From Octopus vulgaris (lineage: Eukaryota): a DNA stretch of 64,000 bases. The stretch covers positions 40,982,001 to 41,046,000 of the forward strand of contig OX597823.1 in assembly GCA_951406725.2 (NCBI GenBank), in the 5' to 3' direction. Below, one piece after another: positions 23,507 through 44,334 of the stretch (positions within the stretch are counted from its first letter, which is position 1; each line of letters opens with the position of its first letter). A model generated the notes under the pieces. The model had not been told where the DNA came from. It worked only from the letters and a program-made list of their open reading frames with translations, and did not search any database. The translations under genes and the position numbers were made by a program.

Positions 23507-23846
23507 TGTTATATTTCGGGGTAGTCATTTTTTAATATTCATTTTTTCTTAACAAATTAGCACGCGCTCTATTATATCCATTCTTTAGTCATTTAATATT
23601 GTTCTTTCGTCACACACCTGTAACTTCTTCAGCGACGGCACGCAGCATAGGGGCTGAAGAGGTCACTGGTGTGTGACGAAAGATTTCCGGACGATGGACA
23701 TAAGATAAAATAAGAACAATAATAAACGAATGAAAGGATGTATAGTGCGTGTGCTTTTGGGGGCAGAAAAAATTGCCGTCCCGAAATATAACAATCCCTG
23801 TTCCAACATACGTTTTCGTATCAGGAATTTTGCAATACAAATTCAT
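23507..23846. mobile_element. Head-to-head pair of short pLTR fragments related to the main PLE, each with a hammerhead-like motif
   Basis: Minus arm 23507-23633 has CTGAAGA-A-GTTACA(GGTG)TGTGAC-GAAAG and ends in MTTPKYNN. Plus arm 23650-23846 has CTGAAGA-G-GTCAC..GTGAC-GAAAG and reads VPKYNNPCSNIRFRIRNFAIQI, versus MTIPKYNNICFNTRLHIKNLAQQI in the main element. Confidence 0.8.
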
Positions 23847-24924
23847 ATACATACTTACATACATAAGTGTGTGTGTGTGGTGTGTATGTGTGTGTGTTAT
23901 GGGAATGTATATGTATATGCTTGTATATGTAGGTATGTATATGCATGTATATATTTTCTCAACATGCGTTTATGTATAAACCTCATGTTGTTTGACCTAC
24001 TTAGAAAACGACATGAAAAGACCTGATTGCTGAGAAGCCATAACAGGCAAACATAGCGTCAGAACACAAATATAGTTAAGTCCTTACATATGTAACAGAA
24101 TGAATCGAAGAAACTTCGCTAAACTGAAATTATTGATACAATTAGTAAACAAACTTTCCGAAGAGTTACTGATGCATGCGTGATCCTTGCTCCCTTTATA
24201 AACATAATAAAATGTGAAGGATGTAGTACAAGTTGGTAGGTCAAATCTGTACCAAGCAAATACACACACACACACACACACACACACACACATGAGTACA
24301 TACACATGTCATAACAGGAATATGATGGAGACAGAGAAGAGTGGGTTGTCGTCGAATCGATTTAGCTAACTGAACTATTTCAGCTCAACTTTCTTGCCAA
24401 TCTAGTAGCATTTAAGGCTTAGATATGATATATTAAATATATAGCAAAAGCAAAAGCAAATAATAATAATAATAATAATAATAATAATAATAATAATAAT
24501 AATAACACAAACAACAACAACGACAACAATGAAATGCAATAAAAAAATGATAGTTCCATCAGAACTGACACAAAATCCCTCGTATATGTCTGTTTGGAAA
24601 TTTCCCTGAGACATAAACATGGTATTTTTTTCTTAGAGCTTGGAGGAGGCGGATGAGTAGCAGAAGAAGTGATGGTATTAAGGGTAGTGATATATTTGTG
24701 GTGATAGTGATGGTAGAGGGGTGATAGTACTAGAAGGAGGATTAGCAGTAGTAGTAATGGTTCTAGGGATAGTGGTGATAGTAGCATGGTAAGTACTAGC
24801 AGGTGTAATAGTGGAGGAGTGATGGCAGTAGTAGTAGTAGTAGTAGTAGTACTAGTAGTAGTAGGAGGAGGAGGAGGAGGAAGCAGCAGCAGGAGCAACA
24901 ACGACTGTCATAGTCGCTGTACGT

Positions 24925-25085
24925 ATCGTTGTAAGGTGCGGGGGACCTCGCTGTGCAATCACGCCCTTTCGTGTTCAGTCTCACAGCACCTTGGTCAAGT
25001 GTCTTCACATATAGCTCCGGGTCAACCAATGAACCAATTGCTGTGAGGGAATTTGGTAGACGGGACTCTGAGGAAGCCAGTCCTA
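24925..25085 (+). mobile_element. Degenerate SINE head (same family as 818-957)
   Basis: CACCTTGGTCAAGTGTCTTC...GAATTTGGTAGACGGGACTCTGAGGAAGCC followed by (TA)n. Confidence 0.55.
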
Positions 25086-25699
25086 TATATATTTATATAT
25101 ATATATATATATATGGAGAGAGAGAGAGAGAGAGAGAGAGAGAGAGAGAGAGATACATACATACATACATACATACAAAAATACATACATTCATACATAC
25201 ATACATACTCGCATGTATATATACAAACAGCACACACTTCACACTTACGCGTAGGTAAATGGATCGAATCCTTACGGTTCCAAAGCGAATATCTTAAACA
25301 GTCTGACATACATATAACGGAACATACACTTATATGCATGTACACAGCTATATACAGGTACACATTTTAATCACGTGATTAAGAAGTATGTATTCCTATC
25401 AGCTCATTCAGGGTTTTATCGCAATGGGCGACATCTTGGATACGTTTTATGCCATGACTGTGTGCCTGAAACTGAGCAGACAAAGTATGGAAGTCGATCA
25501 AATTAAGGAGTTGGTAAACCTAAATCTCTGTCTGGATTAAAATCAACCCTTGGTCATTTGGCGCTTTTAACAAGGTCTATTTAGATCTAGGGTTCTGGAC
25601 GGATGCTACTGGTGTGGGTGTCTGAGGTGCGTTACCTCTTATTTTGCTTTTCGCAAATATCATCATCATCATCCTCAATTACTGGACATTACTGACGCG

Positions 25700-25905
25700 A
25701 ATCCTAAGACTTATAGCGTCGGTTGACTGGGTTCCATGACGCACAAGTGATCGAGATCACAACATCCTTCGCTGAACGGGACGCCAGTCGGTGGCAGTGT
25801 TAACTGCTGAGTTGACTGGAGCAAAGTGAAATGAAGAGCTTTGCTCAGGAACACATCGCATTGTCGTGTCCGCGAATCGACGTTTCGATCGTGCGATCGC
25901 AAATA
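25700..25905 (-). mobile_element. Degenerate SINE (family A/B-like)
   Basis: ACTGGAGCAAAGTGAAATGAAGAGCTTTGCTCAGGAACAC matches the core at 2696-2735. Confidence 0.55.
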
Positions 25906-40946: not shown

Positions 40947-41268
40947 ATTGCCAGTTTAGCCAATAAAAACACACGCACTATATATTTGGTGTTATTTTGC
41001 TTCAGTGATATTTATTTTTTTACATTAATCTTAATCTTATTTTGGCCAAAGTTCTTTCGTCACACTCCTGTGACCGCATCAGTGGTCCTTTGTTTTCTTC
41101 TCACTTACTTGTGTCTCTCCTTACTAACCGCCAGCCATTTTGTATTTCTATTGTATGTCTTCAAAAGCGCATGTTTATATCTCTATGTGCGTCTATGTCT
41201 ATTTAGTGTGTGTGTGGGGGGGATGCCTGTAATATTTGTATCTTCTGGTTATATACATTCTTGTAATT
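40923..41268 (-). repeat. 5' pseudo-LTR (5'-truncated) of the full-length copy
   Basis: Direct repeat of 36365-36708 with a few diagnostic differences. Confidence 0.92.
41044..41088 (-). ncRNA. pLTR hammerhead-like motif (A9C variant)
   Basis: Identical to 36486-36530. Confidence 0.6.
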
Positions 41269-42711
41269 ACAATTACTTCTATGGCTAGGAAGACACATAT
41301 AGAAAGATGGTGCGGATGGACCAGAGCCATACGGAGCCCCGCAAATGTCCATCAGGTAAAGAAAATGATCGCACATGCACTAGGAGCTAGTATAAGAGTT
41401 ACCCTAAAAGGCCACACATTTAAATTTAATAATAAAATATATGCCCAGGACGAGGGGGCAGCCATCGGTATTAGTATCGCTGGTGATGTGGCCAACCTCT
41501 TCATGGTATGGTGGGACAGAAGGCTTAAAGAATGCCTACTGCAGAAATCCATACTCGTAAACATGTACTCTCGCTATGTTGATGATATCAATATAGTAGT
41601 AAAGGCACCCCCACAAGAGAGTACTGTTGATATAGTAATAGAAACTAATACTATGGAGAGCATCCAGCAAATAGCTAACTCCATCCACCAGAGTATTAAG
41701 GTCACAATAGACTACCCCACTAAACACCCCAACCATAGACTACCAGTACTAGACACTGAACTCTGGCTAGAAATTGTGAAAAATAAAACCCAAATCCTTC
41801 ATTCATACTATGCAAAACCTATGGCCTCAAAATACCTGATCCACCGGAGCTCAGCCATTGCGGGCAATGCCAAATTCAATATTTTGATGGCAGACCTCAT
41901 CAGAATAATGAGAAATGTGTCACGCATGTGCGAGCCTACAGAATTAAAGAGACACATACAGTATTTCATTCACCGCATGCAGTTCTCAGGTTACAGCCAT
42001 AAAGAAAGGATCAGAGTATACAAAGGAGCCATGAAGAAATTTGATAATATATTATGTAATGATAGGAATGGGATTTGCCCACTCTATAGGAACAAGTCAT
42101 GGAACACTATAGAAAGGACAAAAAAGAAAATAGGGAAGGCCAACTCTTGGTATGATAGCCATAAATACCAGAGTGTCATGTTCGTTGACACCACCCCTGG
42201 AGGTGAACTAGCGTACCGCTTTAGAAGGACCCTAGATAAACTTAAACTAAGAATTAAGGTTGTTGAAAAGCCAGGCAACCCTATCAGATCTATAATTGGT
42301 AGAAGCTATCCTTTTAGTAGAACTCTCTGTACGGATAACTATTGCACTGTATGTAGATTTAGCCCACAAACGAACTGTAAAGCCAGAAATGTGGTCTATA
42401 GTATAAGATGCATAGAGGGACGATGCAGTAACAAGACAGTAACATACGTAGGGGAAACTGCAAGAAGCATTGGTGAGCGGGTGAATGAACATTGGAGACA
42501 ACTCAAGGAAGGTAAAAGCTCATCGATTCTGTACCAACACGCCGAACAAGAACACGGGGGATCAATCAATAACATAGAGATTAAGATATTGTCCACACAT
42601 AGAACAGATGCAACAATTAGACAAATTACAGAAGCTACACATATAATAGAAAATAAACCTAGCCTGAATAGAAAACTAGAATGGAGCAATAGCGCACACC
42701 ACAACATATGA
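41268..42711 (+). pseudogene. 5'-truncated inverted copy of the PLE ORF (RT C-terminal half plus GIY-YIG)
   Basis: The 491-aa track ORF matches the minus ORF from TITSMARKTH onward, except R/C, WN/RS and T/I changes. It lacks RT motif A, and its first 12 or so residues come from antisense pLTR. Confidence 0.92.
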
Positions 42712-43200
42712 CAATAGTGGATCCTGCAAACATAATAAATACACAGGTAATTAAAGAAATAGAAATGAATATCTATATATATGTGTATGTGTATATATAT
42801 GTATATGTATATGTGTATATATGTGTGTATATATGTATGTGTATGTATATATATGTATATGTATATTCTTTTTTTTTATTTTTTTTTTTCGATTAGATTT
42901 ATTATTATTATTACTAATATTGTTGTTATACATACATACAAGCATATGTAATGATAATAATGGGTGGATGTAAACACATGAACAAAATTAGAACAAAAGC
43001 AACAACAACAAAAACAAAATACAAATTACAAGAATGTATATAACCAGAAGATACAAATATTACAGGCATCCCCCCACACACACTAAATAAACATAGACGC
43101 ACATAGAGATATAAGCATGCGCAAATGAAGACATACAATAGAAATACAAAATGGCTGACGGTTAGTAAGGAGAGACACAAGTAAGTGAGAAGAAAACAAA

Positions 43201-43245
43201 GGACCACTGATGCGGTCACAGGAGTGTGACGAAAGAACTTTGGCC
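43201..43245 (+). ncRNA. pLTR hammerhead-like motif (A9C variant)
   Basis: Same motif as 36486-36530, on the plus strand. Confidence 0.6.
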
Positions 43246-44334
43246 GAAATAAGATTAAGATTAATGTAAAAAATAAATATCACTGAAGCAAAATAACACC
43301 AAATATATAGTGCGTGTGTTTTTATTGGCTAAACTGGCAATATGACTATTCCGAAATATAACAATATCTGTTTCAACACACGACTTCACATAAAAAATCT
43401 TGCACAACAAATATATATATATATATATATATATATATATATATATATATATATATATATTGTATACATATATATATATATTGTGTGTGTGCGTATAAGT
43501 ACCTGTATATTTGTAAATATATACGTTTTATATAATGTGTAGGCATCTGTATACGTTATATTATATCAGTGTGATGTGCGTGTGTGTGTGTGTGAGTGTG
43601 TGCCTGTCTGTATGTGTGTTTAGGGAATGTGTGTACGTGACACGTGCACTTTAAGCATGAGGTAAGCTCAAAGGAAATTTAATCCATGATTCAATTATGA
43701 TCCACGCTTGTTGCGTATCTCGTCCTGTCGTCTTAGGTTACTAATGCGTTTACGAAATGGATAAACATTTCAACTCATATTCCTTCTCCCATAAAAATCA
43801 ATGAAGTTAAACAATGTTGAGGAAATACCAAACAAGTTACCGTATTTGTCTGTATAAATATTAGTGACTCGAATAATTATCTCGTTCTCCTTATCTCTAC
43901 CTACGTACACGTAACTACCCATATATCTACCTGTTTGTTTGTCTATCTATCTATCTATCTATCTATCTATCTATCTATCTATCTATCTATCTATCTATCT
44001 ATCTATCTATCTATCTATCTATCTATCTAGCTATCTCTCTATCTCTCTCTCTATATATATATATATACACACACACACACACACATATATATATATATAT
44101 ATATATATCTGTCTGTCTATCTGTCTGTCTATCTGTCTATCTGTCTGTCTATCTGTCTGTCTGTCTGTCTATCATACACACGCACACATACATACCTACT
44201 CACATGTATTCACACATAATGAGCAAGATTTGTATGTGGGGTCAAACTTACTCAACTCCTCTCCTATGCGTATGCAAATGTATGCATCTATGCACACACA
44301 CTAGCACACGCACAGACACACACGCACACACATA

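What the first reader, a model, noticed from the sequence alone, without database searches (positions are those of the whole stretch)
23507..43414. The same two termination points are reused by independent insertions
Seen: both the miniature structure (23507-23846) and the large one (36365-43414) begin (TA)n|TTGTTATATTTCGG, just after the PKYNN codons. Both end on the other side about 45 nt further into the ORF (GCAATACAAATTCATAT versus GCACAACAAATATAT). Inference: reverse transcription is primed by target (TA)n annealing to two conserved AUAU-like patches in the RNA 3' tail, one per target strand. The ORF start would then double as the targeting guide.
Basis: partly seen in the sequence, partly recalled or inferred. 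Interest (0 to 1): 0.7.

Follow-up and report, generated by a model that had tools for sequence, protein, structure and literature searches.

The report
Penelope retrotransposon's two paired start sites
These are mirror-image insertions of a known kind of jumping gene (a Penelope-like retrotransposon) whose thousands of copies end at two fixed points, one of each per mirror-image copy, likely because both cut ends of the host DNA start copying the element's RNA; the TA-like patches appear only to nudge those points, not to define them.

Summary
Both structures are head-to-head insertions of a Neptune/Nematis-type Penelope-like element (RT, C-terminal GIY-YIG, hammerhead-like pLTR). The left ends are identical: ORF +26, into (TA)n. 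The right ends differ: +73 in the large copy, +76 to +87 (likely +82) in the older miniature. Genome-wide, the two main ends are +26 (2,303 copies) and +82 (1,510, plus 447 in a sibling lineage); +73 is minor (247). This is the known PLE 'tail' (here 56 nt), which matches two internal RT start sites shown in vitro for another PLE. All 46 classifiable inverted pairs in an unbiased sample (97 of 97 overall) carry one end of each type, which supports priming from both target strands. The guide idea is mostly not supported: +82 shares only 2 nt with (TA)n, 447 copies read through a 7-nt TA patch, and non-TA targets use the same windows, with 9-14 bp duplications and 0-5 nt pairing. Pairing likely tunes the register only. 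The architecture is published. I did not find the strict pairing in print, but this scan noted the same twin-priming reading in other genomes.

The parts
23445..23506 (.). (TA)n target tract left of the miniature
23503..23645 (-). Miniature left arm: old-subfamily pLTR with hammerhead-like core (23605-23632), ending at ORF +26 (end A); inner boundary approximate
23646..23853 (+). Miniature right arm: pLTR with hammerhead-like core (23654-23681) plus tail; end B, likely +82 (ambiguous +76 to +87); about 80% like other old copies
36337..36363 (.). (TA)n target tract, left
36364..41268 (-). Large element arm A: full unit (5' pLTR, ORF, 3' UTR, 3' pLTR) ending at +26
36364..36708 (-). 3' pLTR with hammerhead-like core (36497-36524)
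37024..40359 (-). 1111-aa frame: Asn-rich stretch (about 39400-40200), DKS motif, RT (YVDD), CX4CX2C linker, GIY-YIG with internal Cys/His
40341..40946 (-). N-terminal 202 aa (MTIPKYNN...), out of frame with the rest by a one-base frameshift near 40342 in this copy
40865..40920 (-). Tail template, ORF +27 to +82 (56 nt), between the two main end sites
40921..41268 (-). Internal 5' pLTR (97% like the 3' pLTR), hammerhead-like core 41055-41082
41268..43414 (+). Large element arm B: 5'-truncated inverted copy (from -2078), 99.4% like arm A, ending at the minor distal site +73; 1-nt junction overlap at 41268
43138..43162 (+). Positions -204 to -180 of the pLTR, where arm 5' ends pile up in the family (inferred RNA 5' end)
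43207..43234 (+). Minimal hammerhead-like motif CTGATG...GAAA with stem II (by eye; Rfam found none)
43415..43460 (.). (TA)n target tract, right

Best explanation
A Penelope-like retrotransposon leaves head-to-head insertions with one end at ORF +26 and the other at about +82, likely because its endonuclease nicks both target strands about 12-14 nt apart and each 3' end primes reverse transcription at one of two template windows that the protein-RNA complex would hold in fixed positions. Shown: two end windows (+19 to +30 and +73 to +87); strict one-of-each pairing; 9-14 bp target duplications on non-TA targets; the two arms of an insertion come from one template lineage; the (TA)n tract is there before insertion. 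Inferred: the windows are RT start sites (by analogy with PAc in vitro); 1-5 nt of primer-template pairing picks the exact base inside each window; the two cDNAs are then joined head to head, often by a few nt of microhomology; (TA)n targeting comes from the endonuclease and its Zn-finger linker, not from the RNA; one RNA is read twice by an asymmetric dimer (least certain step).
For: Ends: 57 A and 42 B of 99; genome-wide 2,303 at +26, 1,510 and 447 at or past +82; the same ends appear as loose ends in contigs of runs X15, X16 and X17. Pairing: 46 of 46 unbiased, 97 of 97 over all sets, no BB. Arm A reaches further 5' in 26 of 44 pairs and 8 B arms never reach site A, so neither arm can be a copy of the other in those pairs. 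Arms are closer to each other than to other copies (0.67% vs 1.17%, 28 pairs, Wilcoxon p=2e-4; nearest or tied in 5 of 5 long pairs). Clear duplications in 9 of 27 pairs with a non-pure-TA flank, 9-14 nt, overlapping the B end by 1-2 nt in 8 of 9. In L188 unique bases separate the element from the long TA run, and L184 and L225 have no added TA. PMC11167929: PAc nicks and extends both strands and starts at two internal sites that match the tail ends. PMC8557442: (TA)n targeting goes with the Zn-finger linker, which is present here.
Against: No biochemistry for this family. PMC11167929 saw no difference in RT start between strands and calls the start non-homologous to the target. Arm similarity could come from gene conversion, and shared private alleles are few (9 over 28 pairs). 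13 of 27 non-TA pairs gave no duplication and 5 gave only simple-repeat matches. One pair (L073) has an arm stopping at -15. Within pure (TA)n the true junction and duplication cannot be read. Overlapping arms need the same RNA stretch to be copied twice, which is not explained in detail.
Confidence: 0.68

Rival explanations
1. One reading: target (TA)n anneals to two AUAU patches that define both start sites and the target preference.
For: Site A has a 4-nt patch; 90 of 99 flanks are (TA)n. Ends at +73 come mostly from the lineage that includes the 7-nt patch (12 of 15 carry its -1 allele, vs 8 of 51 of +82 copies; p=7e-6). Most readable junctions show 1-5 nt pairing.
Against: The main B site has 2 nt only. 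The 5-nt patch at +19 is used 15 times less than +26. The 5-nt patch at +130 is not used in the sample. 447 copies read through a 7-nt patch. The old subfamily lacks the patch and still ends at +80-82 (23 of 29), with a (TA)n flank in 1 of 29. Non-TA targets use the same windows.
Confidence: 0.1
2. Single priming, then fold-back self-priming or endonuclease resolution of an intermediate makes the second, shorter end (as proposed in PMC3846280 and PMC8557442).
For: 6 of 44 pairs are symmetric at the centre, some with 11-13 nt palindromes, and 12 have B longer than A. L061 shows a host hairpin at its 5' junction.
Against: In 26 of 44 pairs A is longer than B, and A lacks +27 to +82, so neither arm can template the other; 8 pairs have non-overlapping arms. 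Both sites are RT starts in vitro for PAc.
Confidence: 0.12
3. The shared ends are made after insertion: slippage deletions between element AT patches and the flanking (TA)n trim copies back to common points.
For: Could account for the minor +73 and +19 ends; +73 copies look slightly older (89-98% identity).
Against: Cannot make +82 (2-nt match), the strict A+B pairing, or the same ends on non-TA targets with intact duplications.
Confidence: 0.05

Closest known systems
EN+ Penelope-like elements with inverted pLTR and one-sided tail (A. vaga Pen2a, PMC3846280; PMC8557442 Fig. 2 legend; D. virilis Penelope 34-bp repeat, PMC2377424)
   Same: Partial tandem pLTR, head-to-head 5'-truncated copy, tail on one end only, pLTR includes the first codons, 8-10 bp TSDs reported, Asn-rich inserts in the ORF.
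   Different: Tail is 56 nt rather than 30-40. Pairing is strict (97 of 97), where papers say 'optionally' or 'often'. TSDs here are 9-14 nt.
PAc (Poseidon, Anolis) in vitro system, PMC11167929
   Same: Two internal RT start sites inside the ORF start that match the tail ends; both strands nicked and extended; AT-rich targets; predicted dimer.
   Different: PAc starts at about +111-118 in an AC-rich stem-loop; here +26 and +82, with no stable fold (z=-0.92). The paper reports no homology and no strand assignment; here there is 0-5 nt pairing and one site per strand.
Neptune/Nematis clades (and (TA)n-targeting Naiad and Hydra), PMC8557442
   Same: C-terminal GIY-YIG with CX2-5CxxC linker and internal Cys pair; (TA)n preference.
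   Different: Naiad has an N-terminal EN; Hydra lacks CCHH. No tree was built, so Neptune vs Nematis is open.
L1 twin priming (recalled, not read here)
   Same: Both target strands prime cDNA and the cDNAs join by microhomology, giving an inversion.
   Different: In L1 it is occasional and the second site is a chance internal anneal; here both sites are fixed and the arms usually overlap.

Membership tests
EN+ Penelope-like element | Single RT plus C-terminal GIY-YIG polyprotein | tested here: met
   RVT_1 E=0.001 and GIY-YIG E=0.0024, both below Pfam cut-offs; YVDD and VY-YVG motifs; 157 homologues at E<=1e-10; one frameshift in this copy
EN+ Penelope-like element | pLTR from partial tandem, including the first codons | tested here: met
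EN+ Penelope-like element | Inverted 5'-truncated copy and tail on one end | tested here: met
EN+ Penelope-like element | Minimal hammerhead motif in the pLTR | tested here: inconclusive
   Core boxes and stem II present by eye, fits the description in PMC4209133; Rfam gave no hit there; young family has C at core position 9; cleavage untested
EN+ Penelope-like element | DKG-type motif upstream of RT | tested here: met
   PTDKSG, shared with most top homologues
EN+ Penelope-like element | RT groups with PLEs/TERT in a tree | not tested
   no named reference PLE sequences were fetched
Neptune/Nematis | CX2-5CxxC linker before GIY-YIG, and CCHH | tested here: met
   C-x4-C-x2-C linker, two Cys inside the core, downstream His residues
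Neptune vs Nematis | RT clade placement | not tested
   no tree
Penelope/Poseidon clade | No Zn-finger linker | tested here: not met
   linker present
Naiad/Chlamys | N-terminal EN | tested here: not met
   EN is C-terminal
Hydra clade | CCHH absent, CxCX5C linker, DKT | tested here: not met
MITE or retrozyme moving as a unit (miniature) | Many near-identical whole copies or tandem HHR units | tested here: not met
   No other whole-length match; best hits are single arms at 76-85% (40 of 2,280 candidates scored)

The most novel reading that the evidence does not exclude
Double priming is the default PLE reaction: one RNA is held by an asymmetric RT-EN dimer with its two active sites at template +26 and +82, both strands of a 12-14 nt staggered cut are extended at once, and solo copies are events in which one arm was lost. 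The distal site can re-prime and repeat the same 12 nt, telomerase-like (2 of 447 copies; one has four units).
Probability: 0.45. Interest if true: 0.68.

Novelty: new member of a known kind. Interest (0 to 1): 0.42.

Why it matters
How PLEs make their inverted repeats and one-sided tail is named as open in PMC8557442 and PMC11167929. A young family with about 3,000 near-identical pLTRs gives exact predictions for an in vitro test: two start windows 56 nt apart, one per strand, nicks 12-14 nt apart, 1-5 nt pairing. It also offers a natural mutant (the 7-nt patch lineage) showing that RNA-target homology tunes but does not steer. That argues against reprogramming such elements through the ORF start.

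Tried and rejected
Rfam found no hammerhead at the pLTRs. PDB sequence search gave only weak hits (UvrC E=0.65). The homodimer fold of the N-terminal 185 aa gave no answer and is not used either way. The ORF start shows no unusual fold. No RNA holder was listed on record, and only contigs were available, so RNA starts, cleavage and empty alleles could not be read. De novo (TA)n synthesis by the RT was rejected: L188 has unique bases between element and tract, and non-TA targets gain no TA. A chimera of two families for the miniature's arms was considered; the left arm matches other old copies only at 71-74% over 100 nt, so decay is simpler but this is not settled. Telomerase-like repeat addition as a general feature was rejected (2 of 447). 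A pile of arm 5' ends at -97 to -106, near the predicted hammerhead cut, is too small to claim. [quoted passage not shown]
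Full report
What is there. The 7-kb structure is a head-to-head insertion. A full unit lies on the minus strand (36364-41268) and a 5'-truncated copy on the plus strand (41268-43414); they are 99.4% alike. [quoted passage not shown] It has pseudo-LTRs with a hammerhead-like motif (no Rfam hit) and a one-base frameshift near 40342. The closest protein (97% identical) carries an Octopus vulgaris label, so the host is likely an octopus. A 25-nt pLTR word occurs 3,019 times in the genome. The miniature is two pLTR ends of an older subfamily; its best matches are single arms at 76-85%. 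Positions below count from the ORF's ATG.

Checking the observation. Both left ends are at +26, into (TA)n. The large copy's right end is +73. The miniature aligns to +82 and could lie anywhere from +76 to +87, since its flank is (TACA)n-like. I fetched the first 100 of the 3,019 hits (chromosome C1). One reads through into the ORF. Of the other 99, 57 end at or before +30 and 42 at +65 to +85; 90 have a (TA)n flank against 5% of window positions. The modes are +26 and +82, with +85, +22 and +19 minor and none at +73. L106 and L107 share flanks and are not independent. Exact genome-wide counts: +26 then TA 2,303, +19 155, +82 1,510, +73 247, read-through past +88 33. The patterns differ in length, so ratios are approximate. 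Contigs of runs X15, X16 and X17 show loose ends at +82, +85, +26 and +19 (only the top rows shown, and one run may be the source of the assembly). So two windows are real, but the second main point is +82, and the window's large copy uses a minor site.

Pairing. In the unbiased sample, 44 head-to-head pairs were called by script (L072 read by eye as +85; four have 69-564 nt of filler) and two more by eye (L063, L081). All 46 have one proximal (A) and one distal (B) end; P is about 5e-15 under independence. L073 has an arm that stops at -15, and L096 has only a 3-nt remnant; neither was counted. Over all fetched sets 97 of 97 distinct adjacent pairs are A+B; sets picked by their B end cannot show AA but could show BB. 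Arm A reaches further 5' in 26 of 44 pairs, B in 12, equal in 6, and 8 B arms stop before site A. Fold-back copying therefore cannot explain most pairs. The two arms are closer to each other than to other copies (28 pairs, p=2e-4), though gene conversion is not excluded. Of the 44 centre junctions, 32 overlap by 1-34 nt in the listing.

Testing the guide idea. Matches to (TA)n end at +19 (5 nt), +26 (4), +73 (4), +82 (2), +85 (2) and +130 (5); use does not follow match length. A sibling lineage has a substitution that makes a 7-nt patch at +70-76. 447 of its copies pass that patch to +82 or beyond; of 25 inspected, 24 end at +82 to +87 and one reads on (L279 and L280 are duplicates). The +73 ends come mostly from that lineage (12 of 15 vs 8 of 51). 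I estimate that the patch takes at most about 30% of B ends there and 3-4% in the main lineage; later slippage could add to this. The old subfamily lacks the patch and still reaches +80-82 in 23 of 29 copies, with a (TA)n flank in 1 of 29 (biased toward tailed copies, and old tracts may have decayed). Among 27 pairs with a non-pure-TA flank, 9 show a clear duplication of 9-14 nt, 5 only simple-repeat matches and 13 none. In those 9 the ends stay at +24 to +30 and +80 to about +83, and the duplication overlaps the element end by 0-2 nt at B and 0-5 nt at A. Short pairing is thus common and sets the register; it does not create the windows or the target choice.

Other clues. 20 of 118 arms have their 5' end at -205 to -181 and none at -280 to -206 (p about 4e-13). 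I read this as run-off at an RNA 5' end near -204; a YY1-like word sits there (recalled motif), and PMC2377424 (passages) places the D. virilis promoter and start upstream of the ORF. Repeated starts at B are seen in L217, L190, L171 and L290 but are rare (2 of 447).

Mechanism. Likely: the nuclease nicks both strands 12-14 nt apart in an existing (TA)n or other AT-rich site. Each 3' end pairs by a few bases inside one of two fixed template windows and is extended. The two cDNAs are joined head to head. One RNA read twice by a dimer is the simplest reason for strict A+B pairing, but it is untested; the fold job gave no answer.

Known work. The tail on one inverted pLTR is described in PMC3846280 (passages) and PMC8557442 (passages), which also links the Zn-finger linker to (TA)n targets. 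PMC11167929 (parts 1-2 of 4; supplements searched without hits) shows two internal RT starts equal to the tail ends, both strands extended, and calls the start non-homologous. PMC4209133 (parts 1-2 of 4) describes the minimal hammerheads. The retrozyme preprint 10.64898/2026.07.22.740005 (part 1 of 5) and PMC13282606 (passages: 31 recently active Penelope-like families in O. vulgaris) add context. I found no paper stating strict A+B pairing, but older subscription papers were not seen. This scan's notes give the same twin-priming reading for other genomes; my reading was recorded before that.

Verdict. A new member of a known kind. Interest 0.42.

Noticed in passing
window 61723-63080: A third head-to-head palindrome (arms 61901-63057, 84%) of an unrelated family, with a canonical-looking hammerhead core (CTGATGAG...GAAAC near 62927), about 140 nt extra on the left arm only and (TA)n beyond both ends: likely another PLE family with a longer one-sided tail.
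   Followed up: partly
window 1391-1903 (-): Tc1/mariner transposase fragment (HTH_Tnp_Tc3_2, E=1e-16).
   Followed up: no
window 32868-33106 and 50905-51143: Two 91% alike copies of a short interspersed repeat in opposite orientation, each next to AT-rich or TA sequence.
   Followed up: no
L062, L082, L084, L116, L124, L238, L243, L245: A recurrent ~80-bp mini insertion: arm A from about -20 joined to arm B from about +50 through a T-run/A-run microhomology; arms do not overlap.
   Followed up: partly
L290 (L303) and L304: Tandem repeats of the last 12 nt of the tail at end B, four units in L290; re-priming or later slippage.
   Followed up: partly
L061:800-850: The 5' junction is a perfect hairpin of host flank sequence centred on a (TA)n run.
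   Followed up: no
L080, L081: Tiny B arms (13-16 nt) joined to arm A through scrambled filler, in L080 made of element pieces.
   Followed up: no
window 39400-40200: Asn-rich in-frame stretch of about 270 codons upstream of the RT, like the N-rich inserts of A. vaga PLEs (PMC3846280).
   Followed up: no
window 44316-44657: Two copies of a 171-bp unit built of microsatellite pieces, 90% alike.
   Followed up: no
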